A DNA stretch of 57,564 nucleotides, from the UHGV virus genome UHGV-0182465; one strand, 5' to 3'. The notes beneath the pieces are model-generated. The model was not told the DNA's origin. It saw only the letters and a list, made by a program, of their open reading frames with translations, and did not search any database. A program made the translations under genes and the position numbers. How positions within the stretch are numbered: position 1 is the first letter of the stretch; each line of letters opens with the position of its first letter. Below are positions 18,016 to 35,084 of the stretch, piece by piece. This DNA is from a virus.

Positions 18016-18400
18016 AGAAAGCCTATTAAAAATCGCTAAGAACCGATATCACTACAACCCACGAAATAACAAGATAAAACTGCCCTGCATTACAAATTTA
18101 TAACATGGGTGTAAAAATTACAAGATTGCACTTCAATTAATTATAAACGTGTCAATAATAATATTTAGCATCCATTTCCCTGAATCTATCTTTATGATTT
18201 CTATCTGATGGAAAGTATTACTTTAGTTTTAAATCCTTAAACATGAAAACCCAACAGGATTTAGCACTATTGCATTATTAATTTTGGTAGGTTATTAAAA
18301 AACGACACAACATCTGACCAGTAGAACTTTACTTGAACTTACTTATCGTTTACTGCAAATTATTCTGTGATGTACACAGCAATTAATGTCGTTTCAGTTG

Positions 18401-18430
18401 CCCCCGGCAAGTGCCTCCGGGGGATTTTTT
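18401..18430 (+). terminator. Orphan plus-strand rho-independent terminator between the c-di-GMP cassette and the tail-fibre gene
   Basis: CCCCCGG-caagtgcct-CCGGGGG followed by ATTTTTT. No plus-strand ORF of at least 60 aa lies upstream within 400 bp. Confidence 0.45.
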
Positions 18431-18437
18431 ATGCTCC

Positions 18438-19862
18438 TCAACTTTCTAGGTCGTCAACTCGCCTAATCAAATCCTGTACCACGGTCACCAAATCGGCGAT
18501 GATGGCCGTGTAATCCACATTCATCACCCTGAATTTTTCGCCATCAATCTCCTGCTCGATGCCGGGGAAGGTATACAGGTCATCAACTTTCTCAGCTTGC
18601 TGGGCTATAAACCCACGCCTCCTGCGTGTTTCGCCCTTCATATTGAACTCGCATACCCCCAGCGAGTTAATGCGCCTGGAGGCACCTTCCTGAGATTCCG
18701 TAAAATCCTCTTTCAGCCGCACGTCTGAGCCGGTAGTCAGGACGTCCCCTTTGCCAGTGGAAATGGTGCCGCCAGCACGGAATATCCATGCGTCAGTACG
18801 TCCGAACCCATCCGCGTACAGCACAAGCCGGTGCTCAGTCCCGACCTGCTCTTCCATGTACATCTGTACGTAAGCCCCGTCCACGTCACCATAGGCCCCG
18901 CGCCCGGCCATCAATGAGCGTACCGGATTGGAGGTCAGTTGCGTTCCGATGGCTGGGTTTGCTGGCATGGTCGATGATGCTGTGATCCTCCCGTCCGTTA
19001 CCCAAAAACTTTGTACCTGCGCGTTCAGGCGGTTCTGCCTGTCGTGGATAAGGCGAGCGGTATAATCCGCACTGCTGCCGTTGTAGTGGAAGTCAATGTA
19101 AGGCGTGCTCATTGACAGCTCGATCGCCTGCGTCAGAACCTTCCCCTTTGACGTGTTATCGATGTTGCCGCCAGCTGATAACCCACCGGGCAAAGTCGTC
19201 TGGTTATCGGTCCCAATAACGAGGATGTCATCAAAGGTATCTGACGGTGACACAGTGGTCGCTCTTGAACGCTGAACCCTGAACGGTGTTCCCGAGCCAA
19301 CGGCAATTGTCCCGCCTTGCCCCTTTTTTTTGAGCAGAGCCAGATCTGAGTTCTTACCGAGAATAAAACCGGCATTATCGCTGGTTATAACCTGCGAGCC
19401 GTCGAGTTTGTTTCCTCCGGTGAGTTTTGCCAGCGCGTTAAGATCCGATGCCTTCGCCATCCCGCCTATCGCCGGCACGGTCACCTGCTTTCCGGTGATC
19501 GGGTCAGTCAGGGTGATATTGCCACTGCCGGTCAGGGCCATCGACCAGCCCTCCACCACACTACGCCAGAATGCAAATGCGCTGGCCAGCTGGTTAGCAA
19601 ACGACGAGGTACTGGCGGTTTCAGCGGTTATAATGCCGTAACTGGCGCCGGAAAATGCGGTGGTGATATGCCGGGTCAGCGTCAGCTGCGTGTCACTGTC
19701 CACGGATTTGATCGCATACAGGTCAGCACTACCGCTGCGGTAGACCACCAGAATCGACCCGGGCAGTATCCCCAGCGCCACCTGTGACCATTTTGTTGTC
19801 GCACCTGTAACCCGTGCCTGCGACGCTGCACCCGTGACGGTGCCGACTTCATACATCGCCAT
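18438..19862 (-). CDS. Side tail-fibre protein with a C-terminal intramolecular chaperone (peptidase S74-like) domain
   Basis: Gly/Ser/Thr-rich beta-repeat body. The C-terminus GFIAQQAEKV...NVDYTAIIADLVTVVQDLIRRVDDL is typical of the auto-cleaving chaperone domain, and no tfa gene follows. Confidence 0.6.
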   Translation of the reverse strand: MAMYEVGTVTGAASQARVTGATTKWSQVALGILPGSILVVYRSGSADLYAIKSVDSDTQLTLTRHITTAFSGASYGIITAETASTSSFANQLASAFAFWRSVVEGWSMALTGSGNITLTDPITGKQVTVPAIGGMAKASDLNALAKLTGGNKLDGSQVITSDNAGFILGKNSDLALLKKKGQGGTIAVGSGTPFRVQRSRATTVSPSDTFDDILVIGTDNQTTLPGGLSAGGNIDNTSKGKVLTQAIELSMSTPYIDFHYNGSSADYTARLIHDRQNRLNAQVQSFWVTDGRITASSTMPANPAIGTQLTSNPVRSLMAGRGAYGDVDGAYVQMYMEEQVGTEHRLVLYADGFGRTDAWIFRAGGTISTGKGDVLTTGSDVRLKEDFTESQEGASRRINSLGVCEFNMKGETRRRRGFIAQQAEKVDDLYTFPGIEQEIDGEKFRVMNVDYTAIIADLVTVVQDLIRRVDDLES

Positions 19863-19923
19863 AATAAAGTTCCTCCTGTATGATTATCCTTGGAAAAAGA
19901 AAAGGCCCCTGGCGGGGCCTCTG

Positions 19924-22900
19924 TTAGCTAAATGAACTGCTGTCCGTTCGGAAGGCGGTTGCGGTGATGTTCTCGACTGTGCAGGTGTAATCAATCGCGG
20001 CATTTCGACCTGTAGCCTTGATAAAGAAGCCGACATTGTTGTAGTCAGCATCCAGGCGCGCGGCAAACCGCAATTCAAAGGCCGTGGTGCCAGCTGTGAT
20101 ATTACCGGCATCGACGAAGATACGGCGGGTTACCTCCTGCCCACCAATGTTGAACGTAATATCAGAGGTATACCCCAGGCCACTGCCCGTCCCATAGGTC
20201 TGGCACACCAGGGTGCAGGCCAGAACCACTGTCATGCTATACCCCCTGTTCTGATACGCACCGTTCCGCTGTACCGTCTGGTTGCGGCGGAAGGTCAGGC
20301 TGTCGTAACCTTTTGCCACCGCAATGTCACCGATGAACGCATCCGCCTGGACAGTGCCACGGAACACGCCGCTATTCGCTTCGACCCTGCCACGAACGAT
20401 CACGTTATTGAACTGCGAAGAGCCATCCTTGGCGATACGCCAGCCTTGCGACCCGTCAACAAAGTTATTCGAGCGGATCTCGTTGCCAATCTTCGCGTTC
20501 GTGATGGAACCGTCCGCGATTTTGGTTGAGGTCAGGGAACTGTTTTTGATACGTGCAGTATCGATATACAGTTCATTGCCTTCGGCAATCATCACCGGCA
20601 CTGCCGTCGCATTGTTACGGTTAAACAGCGAGAAGCGGTCGGCGTAGAGGATCATGTCGCTCGTTTCACCATTGCTGCCCAGCGTAATCCCCGCGCCAAC
20701 ATTCTTCCCGTTAACCGTCTCAACCTTCATCGACCACAGCGAACTCACCGTACCATTCACATCCGCCACGGTTTTAGCGGTGTTTTGAACGGAAGCGCTG
20801 AGATCCCCGACACTGGATGTCAGGGTCGTCTGCTGCGTTGCCAGCGCCTCCAGTGCCGTTGCATGCGTCTGCTGGGTACTGGTGATACTGGCCACCGATT
20901 TAATCGTGTTGTCCAGCGTCGTCTGGTTTTTGATGTTGGCGGCCGCCTGCGCGTCAATCTGCGACTGAAGCGAGGTATTCAGGCTGGCCTGTGTGCTCTG
21001 GCTGTCGCTCAGCGTTTTCGCCATGTTATCGACGCGGGAGTTGGCGTTATCCACTTTCGTGGCCAGTGCCGTCTGCTGCTGCGCCTGAGCGGTAATTTTC
21101 CCTTCGGCATCCGTTACGCGCGCCGTCAGGCCGCTCACGGCGCTCGCCGTCGCGTCAGAGGCATCCTGTGCCGCTTTCGCATCGGTAACATCCGTGATGA
21201 CCAGATCGTCGATATACAGTGAATAGCCAGGGGTACCGTTGCCGGTGGCGCCACGGGTGGAGATCCAGACCACCGCGCGTGTTCTGCCCGCCCCGTTGTT
21301 ACTGGCGATACCCGTGAATTTCACCCACTTATCGCGCGCGCCCAGAGAGGCTTCGCTGACAGTGACCGCCGCCTGCCACGCATTTTGCCCGGCAGCATTC
21401 TGCGACTGGATACCGACCAGCGTTGTCCACCCGGATGAGGGCGCCTGATCCGCCGGCATCATGGCCCAGAACTCAAACCGGAACTTCGCGTCCTCACGGA
21501 CTGACTGCCAGGTGCCAAGCTGTTTATCACTGTTGCCGCTGTTGTTCTCATCCCGTCTCAACTTCAGGCTCTTACCGCCGGTGAATTTCTGAGACACCAC
21601 CACAACGGCGGTGCCGTTCCCGCCCAGCACCTGGCCATCGCTGTAGCTTTCAAACGTACCGTCAACCCACGGATTAGCTCCCTGAGTGCGGATGGTATTG
21701 ATGGTGCTGGTCAGCGACGTGATGCTCTGCGACTGGCTGGTGATGGTGTTTTCCACCTGGCTTACGCGACCGGTCAGTGAACTCACCGCGGACGTGTCAG
21801 CCTTTTTACCCAGCTCCGTATTCATCGTGGTCAGGCTGTTCTGCAGACTGGTGAGCTGCTGCGACTGCGAATCCAGTTTACCCTCGGCAGACGTCATCCG
21901 GGTGGTCAACCCGGTGACAGCGCTTTGCTCTGCTTTCTGACTGACCGCCGCATTCGTGACGGCCAGATCGCCGCTGAGTTTCGTCAGCTGCTGCGCCTGG
22001 GTGGTGATAGCCCCTTCCGCAGCGGTGACGCGGGTATTCATCTGTGAGATGGCCCCGGCATTAGCAGCGATATCCTTTTCATCCGTAACATCGAGAACAT
22101 GGAAATCATCGAAATACATGGCCCCCGCGCTGAGGAAGGTCGTCAGCTGGAAACTGGCCGTCGTGGTCTTCGTGGCTTTCCAGTCAAACGTTACCAGTTG
22201 CCAGCCAGAACTAAACGGTCCGTAGTTTGAGCCAACCAGCAGGCCAGTGCTGTCAGCCACACGAAACTTCGTGTTACCCGCATCTTTAATCGTGGTCCCC
22301 GGGTCCTGCTTCGCCCATACCCCCATGCGGTAGGTGCGACCCTGGGTGATACTGATTTCCTGTCCGACCAGGTTCGACTGGCCGGCGGACATTTTCAGCG
22401 CCTTGTTACCCGAGTGCGGAACCTGTAAATCGGCCACCGTCGCGGTACTGCTCCAGCCGGTAAAGCCCGCCGCGCCGCGCTCAAAACTGCCGTTGACAAT
22501 GAGGTTGCCCGGCATTTTCCCGCTGGCGTCAATATCCGCTGCTGTCTGGCTCAGGCTGTTACTCAGTTGCGTCAGAGAATCCCCCTGCGCACTGAGTGTT
22601 TTGCCCTGCTCCGTGACCTGGTTCTGCAGGGTGTTCATCGCGCTTGCGTCCGCTTTTTTGTTCACGTTCGCATTCGTCGTGGCCAGATCGCTGCTGAGTT
22701 TAGTCAGCGCGCTGTTGGCCGCCGCGATGTCATTTCCCTGCTGCGTCACCTTGCCCTGCAGCTGCGTCACCGCTGTCGTGTCAGCCTTTTTACTCACCGT
22801 ATCGTTTGTCGACCGGAGGCTGTTCTCCAGCGAGGTGGTCCGCGTGCCGATGCTGCTGAGCGTATCGCCCTGCTGGCTAACCGTGGTGGTCAGTGAATCC

Positions 22901-25900
22901 ACCGCTTTTGCAGTCGCATCTGCGGTTTTCTGCGCACTGTTCGCCGCCGTCACGTTACGCATATGCCAGTCGGCAGCGTACCAGACGGTGCCGAACGGGC
23001 TGCTCTGATTAACCTGCAGGAACGGCCGCAGCAAGCTGGTATCGGATGGCACCGTAAAGCGCCAGGTGGCTCGTTTCCACGCGGTGGTGGTCTTGGTGTT
23101 ACCCCCGGACGCTTTCGCTTCGATGCCACCGGTGGCGGTGGTGGCCCGACCGATATAGAAGTTAAAGTCAGCGCTGCCGGTACCACACGCTACCAGAGCA
23201 GACATTTCGAAAACGTCGCCCGGCGTCACGGCGATGTTGTTAATTTTTGGCACATGGTCTCGCCCGGCCAGCCGGACGGCATACCTGAACGGGCAGTCAG
23301 CCGGCACACCTGCAGCAGTGGTCTCCACCACGTCATAACCCATGCGGTCATACGCCGGATCAAATGACGGGTTTGGGATGTAATCATCCCCGGCAGCATT
23401 CCCGGCGTTCACCGCCGCCGTCAGGCTGACGATGTTGCTGTTGGCTGCCGTGAGGCCTGCCTCGGTTTTCTCCACCCGGCCAGTCAGCGCGTTAAGCGCC
23501 GTCTGATCCGCTTTGGTGTTGACCTTATCGGTGGTGCTGCTCAAATCGCCCTGCAGCTTCGTGATAGCCTGCCCCTGGGAGGTGATTTTGCCTTCCGCAC
23601 TGGTGACCCGGCTGGTGAGATCACTCACCGACTGCGCGCTGGCCTTTTGTGCCACGTTGTTGTTGGTGGTGTTCAGGCTGTTCTGCAGATTCGTGATGCT
23701 CTGAGACTGCGCGGTCAGTTGCCCCTCGGCATTCGTCACCCGACTGGTGAGGCTGTTAATGGCCGATGTGTTCGCGGTAATACCGCTGGCCGCATCATCC
23801 GGACTCGGTGACCAGTCGGTCATCACGGTCCCGGTTTCCAGCTGAGGGCGGCAGAGCCAGACTTCTTTGTCGGCAGACGTCGCGCTTTCCAGACGCGCGG
23901 CAATCAGCCGTTTGGTGCCACTGGTGGCAGGAATAACCCATTTCACCCAGTAACGCGCCCATGCGGTGGTCAGTTTCGTGACCGCCTTGCCGTCACCGGC
24001 CCCGCCTTTAACGCCCTGGCTGGTTTCCGTGGTGGTGGTGTTCGACGGGTTATAGAAATAACTCGCCATCTCCTGCCCGTCATAAGCCCCTTTCGCATAG
24101 AAACTGAATACAAATTCCGTACGCCCGGTAACGTCCAGCGTCTGTTCATCCAGCTGGGTATAACCGGATGCACCTTTCGCCAGCCGGGTGTAGGCCACGC
24201 GGTCGCCCAGATAGGTCTCTGTGGCGTGGCGGCTGCTCCATCCCTCCAGTGTGTTCGCATTGCGGATAAGGTTGGTCCCGCCCACGGCCAGGGAGGAAAA
24301 GTTGTTTTCCAGGTTCGTCAGCGCGCTGCTTTGCGTGGTCAGATCCCTGCCATGCTGTTCAACGGTGTTCTGCAGGCTCTGAAGCGCCGTTGCATCAGCC
24401 TTCTTCGCCACATTGCTGTTGGTCGTGTTCAGGCTGTTCTGCAGGCTGGTCAGGCTGTCTCCCTGCGATCTCAGGCTGCCTTCGGTAGCCGTCACGCGGG
24501 TCGTCAGATTCGTCAGCGCGCTGGCATCGGCCTTGCCGCTGATATCCTTTCCTAGTTGCGTCACATCTGACTGCAGTTTCGTGATCGCGCTGCCCTGAGA
24601 CGTAATATTCTTCCCGTTCTGCGTGACTGACGCGGACAGACTGGAAAGCGCCTGCGCATTCGCATCGGCGGCATCGAGCGCCGCTTTCGCATCGGTCACG
24701 TCAGTGATGATCAGATCATCAATCAGGAAGGCGTCACCCAGGCGAACTTTTGGTGTGTTCGGGATGGAGATCCTCACCATTGCCTGTTTCAGCGCGGTTC
24801 GGTTGTTGGTCAGATAGCCACTGACTTTTGTCCAGTTGTCCACCGACAACTCGGAGACTTTTACGTTCAGGCCAGGCCACGACCAGCCATTGGCAGAATC
24901 CTGGAAGGAAAATCCGAGCACCATATAAACGGTCGGATCGGCGGTCGAGCCAGCCGGCAACTTAACCCACGCCTCCACGTAATAGACCGCGTTATCGCGA
25001 ACCTGCATGCCTGAAAAGATATGGGTATCGTTATTATCCGTCGCGTTCGGGTTGTACTCCGTACTGCGCGTAACACGCAGGCTTTTGGTCCCGCTGTGCG
25101 CAGCTTCACTGGTGATAACGGCGCGGGCATTACTGAGAACATCGCCGACGGCATAGGATTCAAAACTGCCGTCCGGCAGTACGTTGGCTCCCCGTGTCGC
25201 CTGCTGCTTCAGCGATGTATTCAGGCTGGTCAGGCTGTCGGCCTGGCTACGGATATCCTTTTCAGTCTGGGTAACCCGGTTGGTCAGTGAACTGACCGCC
25301 GACGCATCAGCCTTCTTCGCCACATCGCCTTTGACCCCTTCCAGCGCGTTATTCAGCGCCGTGATGGATTGCCCCTGCGATGTCAGGGTGTTCCCCTGGT
25401 TCGTCACCGTCCCGGTCAGAGACGAAACAGCATCGCTGGTCGCCTTAATGTTGGTTTCATCGGTGATATCAAACACCCGGACGGAATCGAGCCAGATTTC
25501 ACCGTTTGTCGGATGAGAATAAAGTTTGAAGTTCTGCCCGTCCGCGCCGGCAGCCGTCAATCCGGTTTCCCAGGTGATGGTTTGCCAGTCAGTGGTCAGC
25601 GTGACTGTTTTATCCTCATACGTACTGTCCGTCTGGCCGATTTTGTTCTGGCGACGGATCAGCAGACTCATCGCGCCGGAAACACCTTTGGCCTTCACCA
25701 CCACCCGGTACTTGCGCTGGCCATTCAGTGGCACCGGCTTGTTGTTGTTGGAGAAAATGCCTGGGCTGGTAGTGGTCGTCCGGTTCAGCCGGACCCCCGC
25801 TTTCCCGTCCCCGAAATCGCCAAAGGTCACACCGGCTGGATACTGAATATCCCAGGCAGTGCTGCCCTGCAGAAAATCAAAGTTCGGGATCAGGTTGTCG

Positions 25901-28900
25901 CCGGCGTTGCGGGTGGCCGTCAGCACATTCGCCAGATTTGTCAGCTGCTGGCTCTGTGTGGTCAGTTTCCCTTCCGCCTCTGTCACCCGGTTATCGACCG
26001 AAGTCAGTGCCGTTGCATCGGCCTTCTTCGACACATTGCTGTTGGTCGTGTTCAGGCTGTTCTGCAGGTTCGTCAGCTGCTGGCTTTGTGAGGTGATGGC
26101 CCCTTCCGCTGTGCTGACCCGGCTCGTCAGTCCGGTCACGGCGCCGGCGGTGGCATCGATGTCCACCCGGTCGGTAACGTCAGTGACGTAAAAGTCATCG
26201 AAGTAGCGGCTGCCGCTAATCAGATAGTTACTCAGCGTCACCGGCAGGCTGGCTGTCTCCGTCGCTTTCCAGCGACCGGAAATCAGGGTCCAGTTTGTCC
26301 CCACCTTACCGCTGTTGTATGGACGCTCAAAAACCGGCTGGCCGGCAGAGTTGCCGATCCGCAGCTTGTTGTTCCCCGCGCCATTATCCGTCGTCGCTCC
26401 GGGTTCCTTGACCCACACCCCGATTTCATAGGTTCGCCCCTGAACAAACGGGATGTATTGCCCCGGAGTCACATTCCCCGGATCAACCTTCAGCGCCCGC
26501 GTCCCGCTATGAGGAACGGAAACCTCCACCACACTGGTCGCGGTTGACCGCCCGGTGTAACCATCCAGCCCGCGTTCAAACGAGGGATTCACGACTAGGT
26601 TACCCGGTATCTGCCCGCTGGCATCGATATCTGCCGCGACCTGCGAGAGGCTGTTCGACAGGTTCGTCAGCGAATTGCTCTGGCTCTCCAGCGTTTTGCC
26701 CTGCTGCGTCACTTTCGTGTCGAGCGTGGCCAGCGCAGTCGCATCGGCTTTCTGCGCCAGCGCTTTATCGGTATTAGCCAGATTTCCGGTCAGTTTCGTG
26801 ATGGCGCTGTTCGCAGCAGTCAGGTCGTTGCCCAGCTGTGTAACGGTATTGGTCAAATCCTGCACCGCTGTCGCATCAGCCTTTTTGGCCACTGCGGCAT
26901 TGGTGGTTGCCAGCCCGTTTTCCAGCTGAGTTGTCCGGTTGCCGGTCGAGGTCAGCAGATTACCCTGTTGCGTCACGGTGGTGGTCAGGGAGTCAACCGC
27001 CGCCGCCGTGGCATCCGCAGTATCCTGAACCTTTTGCGCCGCTGTCACATTTCGCATATGCCAGTCCGTAACGAACCATACGGTGCCATACGGGCTGTTC
27101 TGCGAGATCTGCAGGAACGGGCGGATATAACCCCTGTCCACCATCGCCTGCGTGACCTTGAAGCGCCAGGTGGTTCTCTGCCAGGTCGCGGAGGGGGATT
27201 TCCCGCCCCCCGCCATGAGTGGCGCACCGGTGCTCGTATCTGGCCGAACGGCGGTGCCAACATACAGATTAAAATTCGCCGTGCCGGCGCCGCAGGCAAC
27301 CAGTGCGCTGATCTCAATCACATCGTTAAGCGTGGCCGGGAACGCGGCAAAGTTAGGATGGTGATCCCGGCTGGCAATTCGGGCCGCATAACCATACGGG
27401 CAGCCCGGCGGGACCTCCTCAGCCGTCGTGGCTACCACGCTGAACCCCATCTGGTCATACGCCGGGTCAAACGTCGGGTTGGGAATTAAATCCCCGCCTG
27501 ATGCGTTTCCGGCCCGTACAGCGGATTTCAGCGAGGTAATGTTGGCGTTAGCCGCCGTCAGCCCGGACTCCGTCTTCTCCACTCGTCCGGTTAGCGAGTT
27601 CATCGCCGTCTGATCCGCTTTGCTGGCCACGTTCGCGTCTGTCTGCGTCAGCGCATTCCGGAGCTGGGTGATGTTCTGCGAATTGCTGACCACATCGTTG
27701 CCAATCTGGCTGACATTCGAGCTGAGCACGCCGGCTGCGTTTGCCAGCGCGGAAACCCCGAGACCGGAGTACATCTCAGCAACCTTGTCTGACAGCTTCA
27801 GACCCAGGTTGATATACGCCTGGCCGGTCCACTGATTCACCAGAAACTCAACGGTGTTCCAGCCGGCTTTCAGTTCAAAACTGACGGTATTCCAGCTGGC
27901 GTTACCCCAGGCGACCTGCACCCCATTCACAAATATGGCGCCGGTATCATCAAAAACCCTGGCGCCGGGCGCCAGTGTGATGGTGGTATCTGCGGCCACT
28001 TTCACCTGGCAGGAATACAGCGCGATCAGATAGCTGCCGGCGGATGTAAAGTCCAGTTTGGCCGCGTCGGCCACCTCATCCACGACCGTTGGCGCCACGG
28101 CGCGAACATCGCTGAATGACGGGACTGTCCCGGCGGTAGCCAGCTGCACAGGATAGAGTCGACGGGACCAGCGATTCGGCTGGCCATTGACCAGCTGATT
28201 CGACAGGCTGGTGATGCTGTCAGTATTGCTGCGAATATCCTGGCCGTTTTGCTCTACCTGCTGCGTTAAGGCAGTGACCGCAGCCGCTTCGGCTTTCTTC
28301 GCCAGCGCGGCATTTGTCGTGCCCAAATCGCTCGTCAGTTTCGTGATGGACTGACCCTGGCTGGTTATCCTGTCACCCTGCCGGGTAACAACAGACTGCA
28401 GCCCGCTCAGCGCCTCATTCGTACCAGCCAGGCCCGTTTCCGTCTGGCCAACCCGGTTAGTGAGCGATGTTAACGCGGCGCCCTGCGATGTCAGCGTGGC
28501 GCCCTGTTGCTCAACTTTCTGCGTCAGGGACGTCAGCGCGGCCGCATCGGCTTTTTTCCCGAGGCTGGTTTCCAGTCCACCGATACGGCTCGCCTGCGCG
28601 CTCTGCTCTGTCGTCAGAGAACTCAGTTCACCAGAAACAGCAGCTTTGTTGTCGTTAAACTGCGTCTGCAGGGACTCTCTGGCCTTAACTTCCGCCGAGA
28701 TGGCGGTAACGCGCGCGGTTTTTTCCTGGTACAGCAGCCCGGAGGTGACTTTCTCCAGATCGCTCCCATCATAGGAGCCACGCATCTGCGCCGCCAGCGT
28801 GCTGCGTGCCTGCGCTTCGGCGGTCAGCGCGTTACTCAGCGTACTGCGCACATCCTGCAGAGCCGCCGTACTGGCGCCGGGTGCTGGCCGGCCAACGGCG

Positions 28901-31900
28901 ATCCAGTCGAATTCGATAAAGTTGCTGGCATCCTGCTGGTTCGTCAGGTCCAGGCGAATACGATCAATGTTCCCTGTCCACGGAATATCACGCACCGTCA
29001 GGGTTGCCACCCCATCGGCATATTCCGGCTCAGCAACAATGTATCGCTTCGTGTTATTGAAGTTTTCGCCGGCAGACACCCAGCGGATCTCACCCGCCCA
29101 GACGGGTTTGCCGGTTTTACGAAAGCGCAGCATGATGAAACGGTACGCCGCACCATCGACAGCCAGCCCGCCAGGAGAGGTAATGTACGGATCGGTGGCG
29201 CTGTCCGCCGGGCGTAACCAGCCATCCTGTGACACACCCGGTACGCCGGCGCTGCCGGTCCAGCCCTCGGTCGTCTGATTGTTGAAATGCCAGATAACCT
29301 GCGAATCGAACTGGATATTAGCGCCGGCAGCGAGGCTGGACATTTCCCGCGCCAGATTTTCATCGGCGGTCTTCATCACCTGAGTCAGGCTCTCGATACT
29401 CGCCTCAATCCCCTGCGTTGCCGCCAGCAGTTCATCAGCGGCCTGTGCGGCCTTCGCGTTAACATCGGCGATACGATCCGCGGTCTCCTGCTTCACCGCA
29501 TTGGTCAGCGTGGTGTTGACCTGAGACAGCGACTGCTTCAGGCCATTTTCGGCAGTCTTTATCTGCGCATTCAATGCGGCATCGCCGTCGGCCAGCGTTT
29601 TGCTGACCCTGGCAATCTCCAGGTCGATGGTGGCGTTGATTTCCGCAGCCGTATCAGTGACTGACTGTCTGACCTGGGTGATGCTGTCGGTCAACGACTT
29701 GTTCACAGTTGCGATCTGCTTGTTCGCATCTGCGACGGCGGATTTTGCCTCCTGAACACCTTTGTTTGCCTGAGCCAGACCAGAATCGAGAGCCTCATTG
29801 ACCGAGGTGATCTCATCCGTGATGGTTTTATTCACGGCGGAGATCTTCCCGTCAACATCAGCAGTGATGTTTTTCGCCGATGCATCAATATCCTGGCTGA
29901 CCTGCTTCGCCTGGTCTTCAGCTTCCTTACGCAGAGCTTCAGCGGTCTGCTCCAGTTCCTGCTGCGTATTGCGGATACCTTCCTGCGTTTCGCTAATGGT
30001 GCGCTCAGTTTCCTTCCAGGCTTCGGTCCCTTTAACCGCCTCCGTCAGCTTCTCGTAGTAGTCGTCAAAGTTATCGCTGGCCATCCCCTGGACCCAGTTG
30101 GTCCACGGGCTTTCATTGCCCAGACGATCCACAAGGCGCGCCCGATACCAGAATTCTGCGCCCATACTGAGGCCCATCTGCTGATAGCTTTTCCCCGGAT
30201 AGGCCACGTCTGATAACAGCATCGGCGCACTGCCATCCTGATTTTTGCTGTACTGTAGTTCCGTGCGCAGCGTATCCCCCGAGCCGGTCGGGAATTCCCA
30301 GCTAACCTGGACCCCATGAACCAGCGAACGGGTTGCCAGCGCCAGCGGCGGAAGTGGGGCACCAGACTTACCGGTCAGCTCGGTTTCTTTCGAGATCCCC
30401 CATACGGACGCGATATCCTGCGCGTTAATCGCCCGCACACGAACAACGTAGCGACCGGTATAGATACCATCGACCTCAAACCGCGTATTGCCGGTGCGCG
30501 GCAGGTTAATCCAGTCACCATTGTTCTGACGCCACTGCATTTCATACGCAATCGCATTTTTCACCGGCGACCACGTGGCAACCAGGGTGGTGATGCCAAT
30601 CCCCTGCGACACCCGGTAGAGGCTGGAAATGGTAATGTCGTCCGGTGCCTCCTGTCCCCGTGGGGGAACAACGGTCACAGGACGGTCTTCGATCACCGCG
30701 CCATCATCCACCCGGGGAAACTTGTTCGGGTTATACGGCAGGCCGTTAATAGTGACCGTGCCATCGTTATTGTTCACAACGCGCTTAACCCTGAATTGCT
30801 GAATGGCCAGGTCTGACTGATCCAGAATCCATCCCGCCTCCGCCTGCGGTGCCGGGTTATACTCCTGCTCTACCGTAACAATACGGTCCTGCACACCCTG
30901 AACTTTACGCCCCTGCGACTTTCCGTCCGGCAGGTTAATGATGAGCGTATCCCCGGCTTTTGCCGCGACAGCGCGGTCGAGAGTAATCCTTTTTCCGGAG
31001 ACCGCCGCCACACGACCGCCGTTCTGCCGGCCAGCCATAGGGGCATTGTTGATGCCGATAACTTTGCCGACTCGGGGAATACGCCCCTCCATCCCCGTTT
31101 TAAACTCAACACCATTGTCATCGCGGTTTGTCTCGATGGCGTAGGCGCCGTGGCGCTGCGCCTCGGATTCCCGTGTACAGCCAATGCGGGACAGCTCGAT
31201 AGTGTTAAACCCGAAGCGGTCTGCAACCTCCTGCGAATAGACGCTGGCTTGATCGTCCTGATAGTTATTCTGTGGGTTGCTGTAAGTGACGATGGCCGCG
31301 CTATAGTTGGTCCGCTCGGACGTGCTGGAGAACGTGAAGGAGCCGACAATATTCGATTTGTTGAAAACAAAATCGGGGTCCATCTCACGCGGCATATCGG
31401 CATCAACCGACAGCAGATTATTCGACCAGCTAATCATGCCCCGAAAAATGTTCGCGAGATCCATTAATACGGTCCAGGCGTCAGTCCGCTGGGATATATA
31501 GAGATCGCAGAGATAACGGGCCTCTTTTCCGCCGGCACCATCTGAGACCGGCGCATCGCAATACTGGCCAATCTGATACAGGGTCCATTTATCCACCTGG
31601 TCGGACGAAATACGCTTTCCAAGTCCATAGCGTTTGTTCAGCACCAGATCGTAAAAAATCCAGGCGGGGTTATTCGACCAGGCCCACTTGAAGGTCCCGT
31701 CCCAGCTTCCGCTGTAGGTACGTTCGACAGGGTCATAGTTCGACGGTACGCGAATGACCAGCCCCTTTGCCTTGACCGTCACGGTCGGTGTCCGGCCATC
31801 AAAAAGCGTTGAATCGAACTGAACGAACAACAGCGCGGTGTTCGGATAGCGCAGTTTGGCGTCAACGATTTCCGTTATCGACTCGATACGACTCACGTCC

Positions 31901-32520
31901 GCCGTTTTGTTATTATTCTTATTCTCAGTCAGACGGCGAACGCGGATCTGCCAGCCGGAGTTTGCCCGCGGCAAATCGATGCGGTAGCTGCGCTCATAGC
32001 CAGTGTTAGCTATGCCATCGACGGTATCGCGGCCATATTCGGTATACGTGCTGCCGTCTGTTGAAACATCGATGGCGAACTCAATGCGGTAACCATCTTT
32101 GCCACCGCTGTCACGCAGGCTGTAGACCCCGTTCGGAAATTTAATACGCAGGCGAACAGCCGACAGCTGCGTGTTGTTGATCGCCTTTACCCACGGGGTG
32201 CCAGACTTGATTTCCGTGCTGACGCTGATTTCGTTTTCGACCGCCGGGAAACCCTGAATGTAATCCTGGTCAACCAGACCACTGCGCCACTCCCACGTCA
32301 CGCCCGGAAAATTTTCATGGCCATCGGCATCGAGCAACGGCGTACCGTCGAGGCAAATATCCTGACCGGTAAACTGACCGGCAATTTGACCTTCTGACAG
32401 TGCCAGCAAGATTTTCATATAGGCGACCGAGGCAATTTCCGTCCCGCGATTCTGCCCGTTATCCTTGCTACCACCGTTATTTTTAGCGCCAGCGATTCCT
32501 TTTATTTCAGCCATTCTCAA
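19924..32520 (-). CDS. J: Giant J-like central tail fibre / host-specificity protein of 4,198 aa, with a ~3,100-aa insertion of repeated coiled-coil and jelly-roll (CBM-like) modules inside a lambda J framework
   Basis: Residues 1 to ~820 are colinear with lambda J, for example LRYPNTALLFVQFD...IRVPSNYDPVERTYSGSWDGTFKWAWSNNPAWIFYD versus lambda CYPNTALVGVQVD...LQVPSNYNPQTRQYSGIWDGTFKPAYSNNMAWCLWD. The last ~330 aa match the J C-terminus, with VAAANRIAFID-like and GTLRAEKIVGDIV-like blocks. The middle holds at least 7 modules beginning N(L/P)IPNP(T/S)F(D/E)...GW and ending ...YFDDFxVTDVTD, separated by SKKADATAL...LT..V.. heptad stretches. Confidence 0.8.
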   Translation of the reverse strand: MRMAEIKGIAGAKNNGGSKDNGQNRGTEIASVAYMKILLALSEGQIAGQFTGQDICLDGTPLLDADGHENFPGVTWEWRSGLVDQDYIQGFPAVENEISVSTEIKSGTPWVKAINNTQLSAVRLRIKFPNGVYSLRDSGGKDGYRIEFAIDVSTDGSTYTEYGRDTVDGIANTGYERSYRIDLPRANSGWQIRVRRLTENKNNNKTADVSRIESITEIVDAKLRYPNTALLFVQFDSTLFDGRTPTVTVKAKGLVIRVPSNYDPVERTYSGSWDGTFKWAWSNNPAWIFYDLVLNKRYGLGKRISSDQVDKWTLYQIGQYCDAPVSDGAGGKEARYLCDLYISQRTDAWTVLMDLANIFRGMISWSNNLLSVDADMPREMDPDFVFNKSNIVGSFTFSSTSERTNYSAAIVTYSNPQNNYQDDQASVYSQEVADRFGFNTIELSRIGCTRESEAQRHGAYAIETNRDDNGVEFKTGMEGRIPRVGKVIGINNAPMAGRQNGGRVAAVSGKRITLDRAVAAKAGDTLIINLPDGKSQGRKVQGVQDRIVTVEQEYNPAPQAEAGWILDQSDLAIQQFRVKRVVNNNDGTVTINGLPYNPNKFPRVDDGAVIEDRPVTVVPPRGQEAPDDITISSLYRVSQGIGITTLVATWSPVKNAIAYEMQWRQNNGDWINLPRTGNTRFEVDGIYTGRYVVRVRAINAQDIASVWGISKETELTGKSGAPLPPLALATRSLVHGVQVSWEFPTGSGDTLRTELQYSKNQDGSAPMLLSDVAYPGKSYQQMGLSMGAEFWYRARLVDRLGNESPWTNWVQGMASDNFDDYYEKLTEAVKGTEAWKETERTISETQEGIRNTQQELEQTAEALRKEAEDQAKQVSQDIDASAKNITADVDGKISAVNKTITDEITSVNEALDSGLAQANKGVQEAKSAVADANKQIATVNKSLTDSITQVRQSVTDTAAEINATIDLEIARVSKTLADGDAALNAQIKTAENGLKQSLSQVNTTLTNAVKQETADRIADVNAKAAQAADELLAATQGIEASIESLTQVMKTADENLAREMSSLAAGANIQFDSQVIWHFNNQTTEGWTGSAGVPGVSQDGWLRPADSATDPYITSPGGLAVDGAAYRFIMLRFRKTGKPVWAGEIRWVSAGENFNNTKRYIVAEPEYADGVATLTVRDIPWTGNIDRIRLDLTNQQDASNFIEFDWIAVGRPAPGASTAALQDVRSTLSNALTAEAQARSTLAAQMRGSYDGSDLEKVTSGLLYQEKTARVTAISAEVKARESLQTQFNDNKAAVSGELSSLTTEQSAQASRIGGLETSLGKKADAAALTSLTQKVEQQGATLTSQGAALTSLTNRVGQTETGLAGTNEALSGLQSVVTRQGDRITSQGQSITKLTSDLGTTNAALAKKAEAAAVTALTQQVEQNGQDIRSNTDSITSLSNQLVNGQPNRWSRRLYPVQLATAGTVPSFSDVRAVAPTVVDEVADAAKLDFTSAGSYLIALYSCQVKVAADTTITLAPGARVFDDTGAIFVNGVQVAWGNASWNTVSFELKAGWNTVEFLVNQWTGQAYINLGLKLSDKVAEMYSGLGVSALANAAGVLSSNVSQIGNDVVSNSQNITQLRNALTQTDANVASKADQTAMNSLTGRVEKTESGLTAANANITSLKSAVRAGNASGGDLIPNPTFDPAYDQMGFSVVATTAEEVPPGCPYGYAARIASRDHHPNFAAFPATLNDVIEISALVACGAGTANFNLYVGTAVRPDTSTGAPLMAGGGKSPSATWQRTTWRFKVTQAMVDRGYIRPFLQISQNSPYGTVWFVTDWHMRNVTAAQKVQDTADATAAAVDSLTTTVTQQGNLLTSTGNRTTQLENGLATTNAAVAKKADATAVQDLTNTVTQLGNDLTAANSAITKLTGNLANTDKALAQKADATALATLDTKVTQQGKTLESQSNSLTNLSNSLSQVAADIDASGQIPGNLVVNPSFERGLDGYTGRSTATSVVEVSVPHSGTRALKVDPGNVTPGQYIPFVQGRTYEIGVWVKEPGATTDNGAGNNKLRIGNSAGQPVFERPYNSGKVGTNWTLISGRWKATETASLPVTLSNYLISGSRYFDDFYVTDVTDRVDIDATAGAVTGLTSRVSTAEGAITSQSQQLTNLQNSLNTTNSNVSKKADATALTSVDNRVTEAEGKLTTQSQQLTNLANVLTATRNAGDNLIPNFDFLQGSTAWDIQYPAGVTFGDFGDGKAGVRLNRTTTTSPGIFSNNNKPVPLNGQRKYRVVVKAKGVSGAMSLLIRRQNKIGQTDSTYEDKTVTLTTDWQTITWETGLTAAGADGQNFKLYSHPTNGEIWLDSVRVFDITDETNIKATSDAVSSLTGTVTNQGNTLTSQGQSITALNNALEGVKGDVAKKADASAVSSLTNRVTQTEKDIRSQADSLTSLNTSLKQQATRGANVLPDGSFESYAVGDVLSNARAVITSEAAHSGTKSLRVTRSTEYNPNATDNNDTHIFSGMQVRDNAVYYVEAWVKLPAGSTADPTVYMVLGFSFQDSANGWSWPGLNVKVSELSVDNWTKVSGYLTNNRTALKQAMVRISIPNTPKVRLGDAFLIDDLIITDVTDAKAALDAADANAQALSSLSASVTQNGKNITSQGSAITKLQSDVTQLGKDISGKADASALTNLTTRVTATEGSLRSQGDSLTSLQNSLNTTNSNVAKKADATALQSLQNTVEQHGRDLTTQSSALTNLENNFSSLAVGGTNLIRNANTLEGWSSRHATETYLGDRVAYTRLAKGASGYTQLDEQTLDVTGRTEFVFSFYAKGAYDGQEMASYFYNPSNTTTTETSQGVKGGAGDGKAVTKLTTAWARYWVKWVIPATSGTKRLIAARLESATSADKEVWLCRPQLETGTVMTDWSPSPDDAASGITANTSAINSLTSRVTNAEGQLTAQSQSITNLQNSLNTTNNNVAQKASAQSVSDLTSRVTSAEGKITSQGQAITKLQGDLSSTTDKVNTKADQTALNALTGRVEKTEAGLTAANSNIVSLTAAVNAGNAAGDDYIPNPSFDPAYDRMGYDVVETTAAGVPADCPFRYAVRLAGRDHVPKINNIAVTPGDVFEMSALVACGTGSADFNFYIGRATTATGGIEAKASGGNTKTTTAWKRATWRFTVPSDTSLLRPFLQVNQSSPFGTVWYAADWHMRNVTAANSAQKTADATAKAVDSLTTTVSQQGDTLSSIGTRTTSLENSLRSTNDTVSKKADTTAVTQLQGKVTQQGNDIAAANSALTKLSSDLATTNANVNKKADASAMNTLQNQVTEQGKTLSAQGDSLTQLSNSLSQTAADIDASGKMPGNLIVNGSFERGAAGFTGWSSTATVADLQVPHSGNKALKMSAGQSNLVGQEISITQGRTYRMGVWAKQDPGTTIKDAGNTKFRVADSTGLLVGSNYGPFSSGWQLVTFDWKATKTTTASFQLTTFLSAGAMYFDDFHVLDVTDEKDIAANAGAISQMNTRVTAAEGAITTQAQQLTKLSGDLAVTNAAVSQKAEQSAVTGLTTRMTSAEGKLDSQSQQLTSLQNSLTTMNTELGKKADTSAVSSLTGRVSQVENTITSQSQSITSLTSTINTIRTQGANPWVDGTFESYSDGQVLGGNGTAVVVVSQKFTGGKSLKLRRDENNSGNSDKQLGTWQSVREDAKFRFEFWAMMPADQAPSSGWTTLVGIQSQNAAGQNAWQAAVTVSEASLGARDKWVKFTGIASNNGAGRTRAVVWISTRGATGNGTPGYSLYIDDLVITDVTDAKAAQDASDATASAVSGLTARVTDAEGKITAQAQQQTALATKVDNANSRVDNMAKTLSDSQSTQASLNTSLQSQIDAQAAANIKNQTTLDNTIKSVASITSTQQTHATALEALATQQTTLTSSVGDLSASVQNTAKTVADVNGTVSSLWSMKVETVNGKNVGAGITLGSNGETSDMILYADRFSLFNRNNATAVPVMIAEGNELYIDTARIKNSSLTSTKIADGSITNAKIGNEIRSNNFVDGSQGWRIAKDGSSQFNNVIVRGRVEANSGVFRGTVQADAFIGDIAVAKGYDSLTFRRNQTVQRNGAYQNRGYSMTVVLACTLVCQTYGTGSGLGYTSDITFNIGGQEVTRRIFVDAGNITAGTTAFELRFAARLDADYNNVGFFIKATGRNAAIDYTCTVENITATAFRTDSSSFS

Positions 32521-32571
32521 ACTCCGGGCAAAAAAAATCCCGCCGTGGCGGGAAGGGTAAAATGCATTTTT

Positions 32572-33171
32572 TTATTGCTGTTCTTCGGTATAAATACCGC
32601 CACTGATAATGACGCCGCCTATTTCACGCAGGCCATACAAGATCGGTACACCGTTGCCGGCAGCGACCTGATTAGCAGGCGCACCAAATGAGTACGATTT
32701 TTTCGTATCCCGATCCGTTGTCATACCCTGGGTACCGCTGGGCGCCAGCATTTGTACAACGCCGCCCAGCATCATCGCCGCCCCCATTTTGTAGAGGAAC
32801 GGCGAGGCAGCAGCGGCAGGGGTAAAACTCAGCACCATACCAACGGCAACGAGTACGGCACCAAAGATGGTCTGGAACACCCCTGCTTTTTTGCTGCCAA
32901 TAATCACAGGCGCAATTTTGATTACGTCATGCACACCATTCAGAAACAGGTCATCCTGGCTCAGGTTTTTTTCACCGTTAAAGACCATGTACGTGACTCC
33001 ACGTCCCTCGCTGGTCTCCAGCCATCGTTCCAGTCCTGGAACCATGATGCACAGCGCGCGGATAGCCTCCCGTACAGAAGATACCGACAGGCGATGCTCC
33101 CGGCCGAACAACTTGCCCAGCTTGCCGTACAGGCGAACCAGAACCATTTTCTCTATCGTATTAGTCGTCAT
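32572..33171 (-). CDS. I: Tail assembly protein I-like
   Basis: C-terminus GGVVQMLAP...NQVAAGNGVPILYGLREIGGVIIS matches lambda I GGVVQMLAPK...NMVAQGNVLPVLYGEMRVGSRVVS. Confidence 0.7.
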   Translation of the reverse strand: MTTNTIEKMVLVRLYGKLGKLFGREHRLSVSSVREAIRALCIMVPGLERWLETSEGRGVTYMVFNGEKNLSQDDLFLNGVHDVIKIAPVIIGSKKAGVFQTIFGAVLVAVGMVLSFTPAAAASPFLYKMGAAMMLGGVVQMLAPSGTQGMTTDRDTKKSYSFGAPANQVAAGNGVPILYGLREIGGVIISGGIYTEEQQ

Positions 33172-33868: not shown

Positions 33869-33870
33869 GA

Positions 33871-34620: not shown

Positions 34621-34649
34621 AATGTCCTCGCTGCAGGACCGTAGTCCCA

Positions 34650-34676: not shown

Positions 34677-34712
34677 TAATTTGATGGTGTAGGTGCCGGA
34701 CGGCACGGAAGG

Positions 34713-35078: not shown

Positions 35079-35084
35079 TCTCCA

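What the first reader, a model, noticed from the sequence alone, without database searches (positions are those of the whole stretch)
19924..32520. 4,198-aa J-like central tail fibre, with a ~3,100-aa array of coiled-coil plus CBM-like jelly-roll modules inserted into a lambda J scaffold
The N-terminal ~820 aa and C-terminal ~330 aa are colinear with lambda J (about 1,130 aa). The rest is a repeated unit of heptad-rich linker (…KKADATAL..LT..V…QSQ.LT.L.N.L…) followed by a ~180-aa domain. That domain opens with an N-L/P-I-P-N-P-T/S-F-D/E…GW motif (CBM4/9-like) and closes with YFDDFxVTDVTD. At least seven such modules are present. This would form an extraordinarily long central fibre studded with putative glycan-binding domains, a plausible adaptation to heavily encapsulated hosts. 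It is about four times the size of canonical J proteins.
Basis: partly seen in the sequence, partly recalled or inferred. Interest (0 to 1): 0.65.

Follow-up and report, generated by a model that had tools for sequence, protein, structure and literature searches.

The report
Giant J tail fibre of Klebsiella phage
This is a real 4,196-residue version of the lambda J tail-tip protein from a Klebsiella phage, whose central fibre is lengthened by coiled-coil rods carrying ten sugar-binding-like domains; such giant J proteins are already recorded in Klebsiella phages, though nobody has tested what they do.

Summary
One uninterrupted ORF on the minus strand (ATG 32514, stop 19924-19926) encodes 4,196 aa. 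Residues 25-839 align with lambda J 16-838 and residues 3906-4068 with lambda J 842-1001. So about 3,060 aa sit exactly at the junction between the tip body and the central straight fibre. The insert is about 1,535 aa of proline-free helical linker built from 44-residue units, alternating with ten beta-sandwich modules. Seven modules (A1, B1, C, D1, A2, B2, D2) form one CBM_4_9-like superfamily. Three pass Pfam's cut-off, and an AlphaFold model matches CBM16, CBM4 and CBM22. Module E is probably related. G1 and G2 are different sandwiches, modelled less confidently.

It is not an assembly artefact. DNA repeats are at most 76% identical, and closed genomes carry the same gene (NAR688 4,294 aa; phage 020009 4,234 aa).

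It is not new. phiKO2 gp21 (3,433 aa, "similar to lambda J") is a deposited annotation. A 2020 paper notes ~4,200-aa homologues in Klebsiella prophages. RefSeq names a near-identical protein "TipJ family". Among the 150 closest J-body cluster representatives, median length is 1,720 aa and the maximum is 4,797 aa.

Glycan binding and capsule traversal remain untested inference.

The parts
19924..32514 (-). Complete J-like gene: ATG 32514 to stop codon 19924-19926, 4,196 aa
32522..32525 (-). GGAG ribosome-binding site, 7 nt upstream of the ATG
   Evidence: read from the sequence
32538..32553 (-). Terminator-like hairpin plus T8, between the gpI stop and the J start
   Evidence: phiKO2 is annotated with a putative terminator at the equivalent place
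29995..32514 (-). N-terminal tail-tip body (aa 1-840), including FNIII-A_GpJ at aa 92-219
   Evidence: lambda J 8iyk_J E 1e-99, F2-pyocin fibre 25vf_A E 1e-257; Pfam
29320..30039 (-). Proximal charged helical segment (aa 826-1065)
   Evidence: no Pro, periodicity 3.65
28876..29319 (-). Module G1 (aa 1066-1213): beta-sandwich, the first module in every relative examined that carries an array
   Evidence: model pLDDT 75-86 in the core; weak CBM86/CBM6/CBM35-type fold matches; module position
28189..28875 (-). Helical linker (aa 1214-1442), about five 44-aa units
   Evidence: AlphaFold models one continuous 190-residue helix, pLDDT 80-89
27769..28188 (-). Module G2 (aa 1443-1582): beta-sandwich of uncertain type
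   Evidence: low-confidence model, pLDDT 50-70; no profile relation to the other modules
27037..27501 (-). Module A1 (aa 1672-1826): CBM-like jelly roll
   Evidence: model; hhalign A vs B 84% probability, E 8e-6; tandem CBM22 match across the whole model length, consistent with both domains
26167..26619 (-). Module B1 (aa 1966-2116): CBM_4_9
   Evidence: Pfam 38.5 bits vs cut-off 25.9; CBM16 TM 0.78; sequence match to 2zew
25459..25905 (-). Module C (aa 2204-2352): CBM_4_9
   Evidence: Pfam 28.7 bits; hhalign B vs C 95%
24691..25194 (-). Module D1 (aa 2441-2608): CBM_4_9
   Evidence: Pfam 26.3 bits; hhalign B vs D 96%
23791..24291 (-). Module E (aa 2742-2908): probable CBM-like sandwich ending in ...LETG...TDWSPSPDD
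   Evidence: weak only: 3see_A sugar-binding protein E 0.03; one orthologue hits CBM_4_9 at 7.9e-5; hhalign B vs E 9.5%
22945..23394 (-). Module A2 (aa 3041-3190), paralogue of A1
22078..22524 (-). Module B2 (aa 3331-3479), paralogue of B1
   Evidence: CBM16-2 2zez_A E 5e-6
21181..21684 (-). Module D2 (aa 3611-3778), paralogue of D1
20800..21180 (-). Distal helical segment (aa 3779-3905)
20311..20799 (-). Central straight fibre domain (aa 3906-4068), Phage_Tail_Tip/DUF1983
   Evidence: Pfam; lambda J 842-1001
19927..20310 (-). C-terminal tip (aa 4069-4196): putative receptor-binding domain, 100% identical to that of phage NAR688
   Evidence: no match to the lambda J tip
19901..19922 (-). Terminator-like hairpin overlapping the stop codon and extending just downstream
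32572..33171 (-). gpI-like tail assembly gene immediately upstream
   Evidence: phrog_32
18438..19862 (-). Side tail fibre gene (474 aa) with a Peptidase_S74 intramolecular chaperone, immediately downstream

Best explanation
This is the tail-tip / central-fibre protein (lambda gpJ, TipJ family) of a temperate lambda-like Klebsiella siphophage.

Shown by the tools:
- The first ~840 aa are the conserved body that builds the tail tip.
- The last ~290 aa are the conserved straight-fibre domain plus a distinct C-terminal tip.
- Between them, at the exact lambda J 838/842 junction, lies a ~3,060-aa insert.
- The insert consists of helical, proline-free rods made of 44-residue units, alternating with ten beta-sandwich domains.
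- Seven of these domains belong to one CBM_4_9-like superfamily.

Inferred:
- Three J chains run in parallel and in register as a trimeric coiled coil, as the rest of J is trimeric.
- Each node would then display three sandwich domains, about 30 per virion.
- If fully extended, the fibre would be up to ~230 nm long (1,535 linker residues x ~0.15 nm). That is longer than the ~150 nm tail implied by the 1,000-aa tape measure.
- The domains bind surface polysaccharide weakly and multivalently. This would hold the virion in the capsule and let the distal tip reach an outer-membrane receptor. No ORF in the window large enough for a classical beta-helix depolymerase shows such a domain.
- Recombination between the similar linker units adds, deletes and shuffles modules and tunes rod length.
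For: Family and insertion point.

Helical linkers:
- They have 0 Pro and almost no aromatics in 1,535 aa, with periodicity 3.4-3.65.
- AlphaFold predicts helices of 42-55 residues and one of 190 residues at pLDDT 80-89.

Parallel in-register rod rather than folded-back bundles:
- NAR688 differs from the window only by insertions of 11, 44 and 44 aa inside linkers.
- Linkers of 2, 3 and 5 units all occur.

CBM fold:
- Pfam CBM_4_9 scores above cut-off for B1, C and D1.
- Foldseek matches CBM16 at TM 0.78 and E 2e-10, plus CBM4-2, tandem CBM22 and CBM61.
- hhalign links A, B, C and D.
- B1 aligns to CBM16-1 with an aromatic (Tyr) at the position of its Trp20.

Real and recurrent:
- Closed genomes carry J genes of 3,193-4,294 aa.
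- DNA repeats are at most 76% identical.

Module shuffling and whole-module indels:
- P0095 has the same N-terminus (99%) but lacks C and D1.
- P0098 lacks G2 through E.
- P0097 (77% identical body) has no array at all.

Host is Klebsiella.

No depolymerase candidate:
- The only ORFs above 450 aa are an OLD nuclease, an ORC-like ATPase, an exonuclease, the side fibre, J, the tape measure and the large terminase.

Analogous fibres:
- Mycobacteriophage Douge central fibre gp20 matches both models.
- The Pb4 central fibre of Klebsiella Sugarlandvirus phages is 3,446-3,454 aa, with lectin-like domains proposed to bind carbohydrate (PMC13611949).
Against: - No binding, oligomeric state or virion image was or could be tested here.
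- Published micrographs do not clearly show one very long central fibre. [quoted passage not shown] PMBT64, which carries a homologue, is described as having no visible appendages.
- A ~230 nm rod raises an unanswered question: how is the tail tube brought to the membrane after the tip binds?
- Only 3 of the 8 modules scanned pass Pfam's cut-off on their own.
- G1 and G2 fold matches are weak (E ~1e-4, TM 0.5-0.63) and the G2 model is low-confidence.
- A CBM fold does not prove sugar binding.
Confidence: 0.7

Rival explanations
1. The size is an assembly artefact: a repeat collapsed or expanded, so the true gene has a different length.
For: The gene is internally repetitive. In public short-read assemblies it is very often broken into partial proteins on 1-2 kb contigs.
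Against: The longest DNA repeats are 63-261 nt at only 60-76% identity, too divergent to collapse. The same module order, at 96-100% identity, recurs in independently closed genomes: phage 020009, NAR688 and the CRKP-1 plasmid. Length differences between them are clean 11- and 44-aa indels or whole modules.
Confidence: 0.02
2. The helical linkers fold back on themselves as hairpins or three-helix bundles within each chain. The insert would then be a compact cluster or three separate arms at the tail tip, not one long rod.
For: In the A1-B1 linker, AlphaFold breaks the helix into three segments at the Gly-containing unit borders. NAR688 micrographs are described as showing multiple long fibres and only a central spike. 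PMBT64 shows no obvious appendage.
Against: The G1-G2 linker is modelled as a single 190-residue helix. Linkers tolerate 2, 3 or 5 units and an 11-aa insertion. That would change the topology of antiparallel bundles but not of a parallel rod. The multiple fibres seen in NAR688 may be the separate side-fibre protein. A 2-nm rod is easily missed in negative stain. This is inference.
Confidence: 0.2
3. The sandwich domains are not for host adsorption. They stick the virion to environmental or mucosal glycans (as proposed for Ig-like capsid decorations), or they are inert spacers.
For: The CBM fold is generic. No specificity information exists. Similar CBM-plus-helix architectures occur in tail proteins of phages of many unrelated hosts.
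Against: The domains lie on the infection axis, between the tip and the receptor-binding end. Arrays are shuffled and exchanged like host-range cassettes between otherwise different phages. Arrays built from these particular modules were found mostly in phages of Klebsiella, and in smaller numbers in phages of other hosts such as Acinetobacter and Stenotrophomonas. This is inference.
Confidence: 0.1
4. The insert carries an unrecognised capsule-degrading enzyme, so the protein is a depolymerase-bearing fibre.
For: Many Klebsiella phage receptor-binding proteins are depolymerases. The fold search also touches CBM-like domains of Klebsiella tailspikes (Kp7 gp52, K2-2 TSP).
Against: No pectate-lyase or beta-helix, hydrolase or lyase family was found by Pfam or PHROGs on the whole protein or on eight of the ten modules. 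Every globular segment is only 140-170 aa, and the four modelled ones are beta-sandwiches.
Confidence: 0.03

Closest known systems
Klebsiella telomere phage NAR688 J protein (4,294 aa; CP072507) and phage 020009 / CRKP-1 plasmid gpJ (4,234 aa; WP_181726858.1, 'TipJ family phage tail tip protein')
   Same: All ten modules occur in the same order at 90-100% identity. NAR688 also shares the straight-fibre domain and C-terminal tip at 99-100%.
   Different: The first ~660 aa are only 42-60% identical. The window phage has a lambda-type integrase and a different tail shaft module, whereas these relatives are N15-like linear or plasmid prophages. NAR688 has 11+44+44 extra linker residues. Phage 020009 has a different C-terminal tip.
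phiKO2 gp21 (3,433 aa; deposited annotation 'similar to lambda J protein'), and the '~4200 aa' homologues noted in Klebsiella prophages (de Sousa et al. 2020, PMC7784688)
   Same: Same family and same kinds of module (G1, E, D, B, A), with G1 first.
   Different: Seven modules in a different order, at 43-68% identity. The published notes record the size only. I found no published domain dissection in the library searched.
Bacteriophage lambda gpJ (1,132 aa; PDB 8iyk, 8xcj)
   Same: Tip body residues 16-838 and straight fibre residues 842-1001 are colinear. The gene neighbourhood is the same.
   Different: Lambda has nothing between residues 838 and 842. The LamB-binding C-terminal domain has no detectable counterpart here.
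Pb4 central fibre of Klebsiella Sugarlandvirus (T5-like) phages Lyra, Lyris and Mirion, 3,446-3,454 aa (PMC13611949)
   Same: A central fibre enlarged about five-fold by strings of lectin-like or Ig-like beta domains proposed to bind carbohydrate, in a depolymerase-less Klebsiella siphophage.
   Different: It belongs to an unrelated protein family (T5 pb4). Its linkers are collagen triple helices. The linkers here have 0% Pro and 5% Gly and are alpha-helical.
Mycobacteriophage Douge central fibre gp20 (PDB 8zdp)
   Same: A solved trimeric central fibre that matches both models over their helix-plus-sandwich length.
   Different: It is much shorter (763-878 aa), shares 11-17% identity and comes from a different host envelope.
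CBM16, CBM4 and CBM22 carbohydrate-binding modules (Pfam CBM_4_9, PF02018; e.g. 2zew, 2y64, 4xup)
   Same: Same jelly-roll fold at TM 0.67-0.79. Shares the N-terminal N-x-V-x-N-P-x-F-E-x-G motif. Has an aromatic at the CBM16 Trp20 position.
   Different: Those modules are appended to glycoside hydrolases. Here they are nodes in a viral fibre, and their ligand is unknown.

Membership tests
Lambda gpJ / TipJ tail-tip protein family | N-terminal tip-forming body homologous to lambda J ~1-840 | tested here: met
   8iyk_J E 1e-99, query 25-839 vs 16-838; FNIII-A_GpJ 136 bits; phrog_31 'central tail fiber J'
Lambda gpJ / TipJ tail-tip protein family | C-terminal central straight fibre domain (Phage_Tail_Tip/DUF1983) | tested here: met
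   PF09327 106 bits at 3909-4050; lambda J 842-1001 aligned
Lambda gpJ / TipJ tail-tip protein family | Gene order tape measure-M-L-K-I-J | tested here: met
   PHROG hits for the ORFs at 32572-38437
Lambda gpJ / TipJ tail-tip protein family | Lambda-type LamB-binding C-terminal domain | tested here: not met
   No solved J tip aligns beyond query residue ~4068. This defines lambda's specificity, not the family.
Lambda gpJ / TipJ tail-tip protein family | Three copies per virion forming the tip and a trimeric fibre | not testable with these tools
   Needs virion structure or multimer prediction
CBM_4_9 (PF02018) carbohydrate-binding modules | Score above Pfam gathering threshold (25.9 bits) | tested here: met
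   B1 38.5, C 28.7 and D1 26.3 bits. A1, D2, E, G1 and G2 gave no such hit on their own. A2 and B2 were not scanned.
CBM_4_9 (PF02018) carbohydrate-binding modules | Beta-jelly-roll fold superposable on solved CBM4/9/16/22 | tested here: met
   A1-B1 model pLDDT 82.6; CBM16 TM 0.78 at rmsd ~3 A; tandem CBM22 aligned across the full model length
CBM_4_9 (PF02018) carbohydrate-binding modules | Homology of the remaining modules to the Pfam-positive ones | tested here: inconclusive
   hhalign: A-B 84%, B-C 95%, B-D 96%, B-E 9.5%. G1 and G2 score below 2% against all others.
CBM_4_9 (PF02018) carbohydrate-binding modules | Carbohydrate binding through an aromatic-lined cleft | not testable with these tools
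   Only a lead: B1 has Tyr at the CBM16-1 Trp20 position. Read from the sequence, other modules carry F or W after the opening motif. That Trp20 is a binding residue is from my memory of the CBM16 literature, not checked here.
Trimeric alpha-helical coiled-coil phage fibre | Helical, proline-free segments with 3.5-3.67 residue hydrophobic repeat | tested here: met
   indels of 11 and 44 aa
Trimeric alpha-helical coiled-coil phage fibre | Parallel three-stranded assembly | not testable with these tools
   Only single-chain prediction was available
Capsule depolymerase tailspike | Beta-helix, pectate-lyase or other catalytic domain | tested here: not met
   None found by Pfam or PHROGs on the whole protein or on the modules scanned
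T5 Pb4-type giant central fibre with collagen linkers | Gly-X-Y triple-helix linkers and pb4 homology | tested here: not met
   Linkers have 0% Pro and 5% Gly. No G-X-Y runs in the giant J homologues. No pb4 family hit.

The most novel reading that the evidence does not exclude
The array is a length-adjustable, capsule-depth-matched probe. Its 44-residue rod units and interchangeable weak glycan-binding nodes would let depolymerase-less temperate Klebsiella phages thread through the capsule to an outer-membrane receptor. Unequal recombination between linker units would act as a dedicated mechanism that retunes both reach and glycan range. The whole ~10-kb fibre cassette would move between integrating prophages, telomere phages, SSU5-like phage-plasmids and virulent phages. 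This would be a second, non-enzymatic strategy against capsules, alongside depolymerases.
Probability: 0.3. Interest if true: 0.6.

Novelty: already known. Interest (0 to 1): 0.3.

Why it matters
Klebsiella capsule is the main barrier to phage therapy, and most attention has gone to depolymerase tailspikes. Giant J fibres occur in many temperate and virulent Klebsiella siphophages, including phage-plasmids common in clinical isolates. If they are a non-enzymatic way through the capsule, their module content could help predict or engineer host range. The natural variants found here offer a ready-made experimental series: the same body with 10, 8, 4 or 0 modules, and linkers differing by exact 11- or 44-aa steps. 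As a discovery, however, the object itself is already catalogued. What is missing is experiment, not detection.

Tried and rejected
- A homologue search with the full 4,196-aa protein timed out. Two ~500-aa segments were used instead. They returned mostly partial Klebsiella fragments, so the alignments for structure prediction were shallow.
- The 2004 phiKO2 paper is not held. The size and the "similar to lambda J" note were taken from the GenBank record.
- Papers on relatives gave no functional or structural analysis of the giant protein: HSE3, EKq1, PMBT64, a Klebsiella receptor-binding-protein atlas preprint and an N15-like phage paper.
- G2 could not be assigned. The model is low-confidence, and Pfam gave only a sub-threshold cadherin-like hit.
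- Fold searches were run on two-domain models, so the table does not say which domain each hit covers. A1's CBM fold rests on the tandem CBM22 alignment spanning the model length and on hhalign.
- Assembly artefact, hidden depolymerase, collagen linkers and several genes fused by a sequencing error were considered and rejected.
- Plus-strand ORFs inside the gene (up to 240 aa) were not scanned. They are assumed to be antisense by-products of a long GC-rich frame.
- No tRNA was found in the window.
Full report
**1. Observation**

The window holds one uninterrupted minus-strand ORF, 19924..32520, of 4,198 codons from a TTG. Two codons downstream is an ATG at 32514, preceded by GGAG at a 7-nt spacing. 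I take the product to be 4,196 aa.

A terminator-like hairpin with a T8 run lies between the upstream gpI-like gene and this start. A second, stronger one overlaps the stop codon and runs just downstream. Terminator-like sites in the region as a whole are no more frequent than chance. However, the phiKO2 record annotates putative terminators at the equivalent positions.

**2. What it is**

Pfam finds FNIII-A_GpJ at aa 92-219 and Phage_Tail_Tip at aa 3909-4050. PHROGs gives phrog_2589 ("tail protein", profile length 3,686) and phrog_31 ("central tail fiber J").

Against solved structures:
- Residues 25-839 align with lambda J 16-838 (8iyk_J, 1,132 aa, E 1e-99).
- Residues 13-860 align with the F2-pyocin fibre (E 1e-257).
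- Residues 3906-4068 align with lambda J 842-1001.

The extra ~3,060 aa are therefore one insertion at the boundary between the tip body and the central straight fibre. The last 128 aa match no solved J tip.

The neighbours are tape measure (1,000 aa), M, L, K and I upstream, and a 474-aa side fibre with a Peptidase_S74 chaperone downstream. The rest of the window is lambda-like:
- integrase, excisionase, exonuclease, CI-like repressor, P-like replication protein and lysozyme;
- large terminase and major head protein.

**3. Anatomy of the insert**

Reading the sequence and comparing it with itself gives ten globular modules separated by eleven linkers:

| Module | Residues |
|---|---|
| G1 | 1066-1213 |
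| G2 | 1443-1582 |
| A1 | 1672-1826 |
| B1 | 1966-2116 |
| C | 2204-2352 |
| D1 | 2441-2608 |
| E | 2742-2908 |
| A2 | 3041-3190 |
| B2 | 3331-3479 |
| D2 | 3611-3778 |

The A-B pair is duplicated (1632-2199 vs 3001-3562, 53-60% identity).

The linkers total 1,535 aa. They contain no proline and almost no aromatic residues. Their hydrophobic periodicity is 3.4-3.65. They are built from 44-residue units with consensus TSQGQ..T.L.N.L.TTN..V.KKADA.A...LT.RVTQ.E..LTSQ, which appears at the DNA level as 132-nt spacings.

AlphaFold models them as helices. There are three of 42-55 residues between A1 and B1, and one of 190 residues between G1 and G2, at pLDDT 80-89.

**4. The modules**

- Pfam CBM_4_9 exceeds its gathering score for B1 (38.5 bits), C (28.7) and D1 (26.3).
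- Profile-profile comparison joins A-B (84%, E 8e-6), B-C (95%) and B-D (96%). E is only weakly linked. G1 and G2 are not linked at all.
- The A1-linker-B1 model (mean pLDDT 82.6) shows two beta-sandwiches. It matches CBM16 (TM 0.78, rmsd ~3 A, 24-26% identity), CBM4-2, CBM61 and the tandem CBM22 pair over its whole length.
- B1 aligns to CBM16-1 through the N-x-V-x-N-P-x-F-E-x-G-L-D motif, with Tyr where CBM16-1 has Trp20.
- E has weak links to a Bacteroides "sugar binding protein" (3see_A, E 0.03), and one orthologue links to CBM_4_9.
- The G1-linker-G2 model is poorer (pLDDT 68; G1 core 75-86, G2 50-70). It gives only weak galactose-binding-like, CBM6, CBM35, CBM86 and PA14-type matches.

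There are three further sandwiches of less certain kind.

**5. Not an artefact**

Internal DNA repeats are 63-261 nt at 60-76% identity, so they are too divergent to collapse.

J genes read from deposited phage and plasmid records have these lengths:

| Source | J length (aa) |
|---|---|
| Kpn74 (reading frame broken near the end) | 3,088 |
| 48ST307 | 3,193 |
| Op1_ER4, a virulent 48-kb phage | 3,347 |
| phiKO2 | 3,433 |
| 020009 and a plasmid of E. coli CRKP-1 | 4,234 |
| NAR688 | 4,294 |

An SSU5-like phage-plasmid has one longer than 3,565 aa with ten modules. Stenotrophomonas phage Yut4 has a 2,565-aa J with G1-, D- and C-like modules.

**6. Relatives and evolution**

Against NAR688, residues 1-660 are 42-60% identical and residues 700-4196 are 98-100% identical. 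The only length differences are insertions of 11, 44 and 44 aa inside linkers. Against 020009 the pattern is the same, except that the C-terminal ~150 aa differ.

So a ~10-kb fibre cassette is shared almost unchanged between an integrase-bearing lambdoid phage and telomere phage-plasmids. The part that must fit each phage's own tail differs.

Other variants show whole-module changes:
- P0095 has the same body (99%) but lacks C and D1.
- P0098 goes from G1 straight to A2-B2-D2.
- P0097 (77% identical body, 1,191 aa) has no array.

Module order is shuffled in phiKO2, Op1_ER4 and 48ST307. G1 is always first.

A search of 1.84 billion cluster representatives with the body (aa 1-840) found 3,700 proteins at E<=1e-30. 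Among the best 150:
- lengths run from 828 to 4,797 aa, with a median of 1,720 aa;
- 48 are at least 2,000 aa, 14 at least 3,000 aa and one at least 4,000 aa.

Lambda's 1,132 aa is the short end of a continuum. This protein is near the top of it but is not the record.

**7. Mechanism**

Shown: family, insertion point, helical linkers, sandwich nodes, CBM-type fold and Pfam membership for several modules, and modular indels.

Inferred: a parallel trimeric coiled coil. This rests on two points. J is trimeric on both sides of the insert. Linkers tolerate any number of 44-aa units, and also an 11-aa step, which suits a continuous rod but not antiparallel bundles.

Fully extended, the linkers alone would span about 230 nm. 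The tape measure implies a tail of about 150 nm. Each node would carry three sandwich domains.

The likely role is weak, multivalent binding to capsule or O-antigen. This would position the distal tip on an outer-membrane receptor. In the ORF list, nothing large enough for a classical depolymerase shows such a domain.

Cautions:
- NAR688 virions are described with a central spike and multiple long fibres (PMC12042878).
- PMBT64 is described as having no visible appendages.
- Nobody has shown binding.
- How a tube would reach the membrane from the end of such a rod is unexplained.

**8. Comparison with the known, and novelty**

- The phiKO2 record already calls its 3,433-aa gp21 "similar to lambda J protein".
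- de Sousa et al. 2020 mention two Klebsiella prophages with "a protein of ca. 4200 aa" homologous to it (PMC7784688).
- RefSeq names the 4,234-aa protein "TipJ family phage tail tip protein".
- NCBI labels fragments "carbohydrate binding domain-containing protein".
- CBM-plus-helix strings are widespread in phage tail proteins.
- A solved example of a similar central fibre exists in Douge gp20.
- An analogous giant central fibre with collagen linkers has been described for Klebsiella Sugarlandvirus phages (PMC13611949).

I found no published domain-level dissection or experiment on the giant J itself in the library searched.

**Verdict**

Its interest lies in an untested mechanism, for which the natural variants listed here would make good material.

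Noticed in passing
window 19927-30530 vs locus L006 (NAR688) and L007 (020009): Mosaic gene. The first ~660 aa of J are 42-60% identical to the telomere-phage proteins, but everything after ~aa 700 is 98-100% identical. This implies recent transfer of a ~10-kb fibre cassette between an integrase-type lambdoid phage and N15-like phage-plasmids. The head genes (about 39.6-46.7 kb) are also 93-98% identical to those phages, whereas the tail shaft and tip genes are not.
   Followed up: yes
window about 24.4 kb (D1-E linker, after aa 2687 and 2712) and about 29.8 kb (after aa 903): Length differences from NAR688 are exactly 44, 44 and 11 aa. These correspond to whole linker units or one hendecad, suggesting unequal recombination that preserves coiled-coil register.
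   Followed up: yes
window 32538-32553 (-): A hairpin plus T8, resembling an intrinsic terminator, sits between gpI and J, as annotated in phiKO2. It may throttle expression of a protein needed in only three copies per virion.
   Followed up: partly
window 15908-18015 (-): Two low-GC (about 33%) genes lie between the side fibre gene and the integrase, in the position of lambda's b region. They encode a MASE2-GGDEF diguanylate cyclase and an EAL-domain protein. They are candidate morons that could alter c-di-GMP signalling in the lysogen.
   Followed up: no
window 9477-19862: The gene order is J - side fibre - (GGDEF/EAL) - integrase - excisionase - exonuclease - repressor. This is the vegetative (circular) lambda order, not that of a prophage split at its attachment site. 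The window may therefore be a complete or circularly assembled phage genome rather than an integrated copy. No tRNA is present.
   Followed up: partly
window 4-2992 (+): An OLD-family nuclease (AAA_15 plus TOPRIM, 589 aa) is followed by an IS-type DDE transposase. This could be a defence gene plus an insertion sequence inside the phage.
   Followed up: no
window 11432-13570 (+): A 712-aa protein combines an exonuclease VIII-like N-terminal part with an Rv2179c-like 3'-5' exoribonuclease domain.
   Followed up: no
public proteins P0001-P0094: Most database relatives of the array are partial proteins on 1-2 kb contigs. Some of these clusters hold up to ~290 member sequences. Short-read Klebsiella assemblies routinely break inside this gene, probably because several resident prophages and phage-plasmids carry similar copies. 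Its frequency and length are therefore under-recorded.
   Followed up: partly
literature on relatives (NAR688, PMBT64): Electron micrographs of phages with giant J proteins are described inconsistently. NAR688 is said to have a central spike plus multiple long fibres, whereas PMBT64 is said to have no visible appendages. Neither description reports the single long beaded fibre that the sequence suggests.
   Followed up: no
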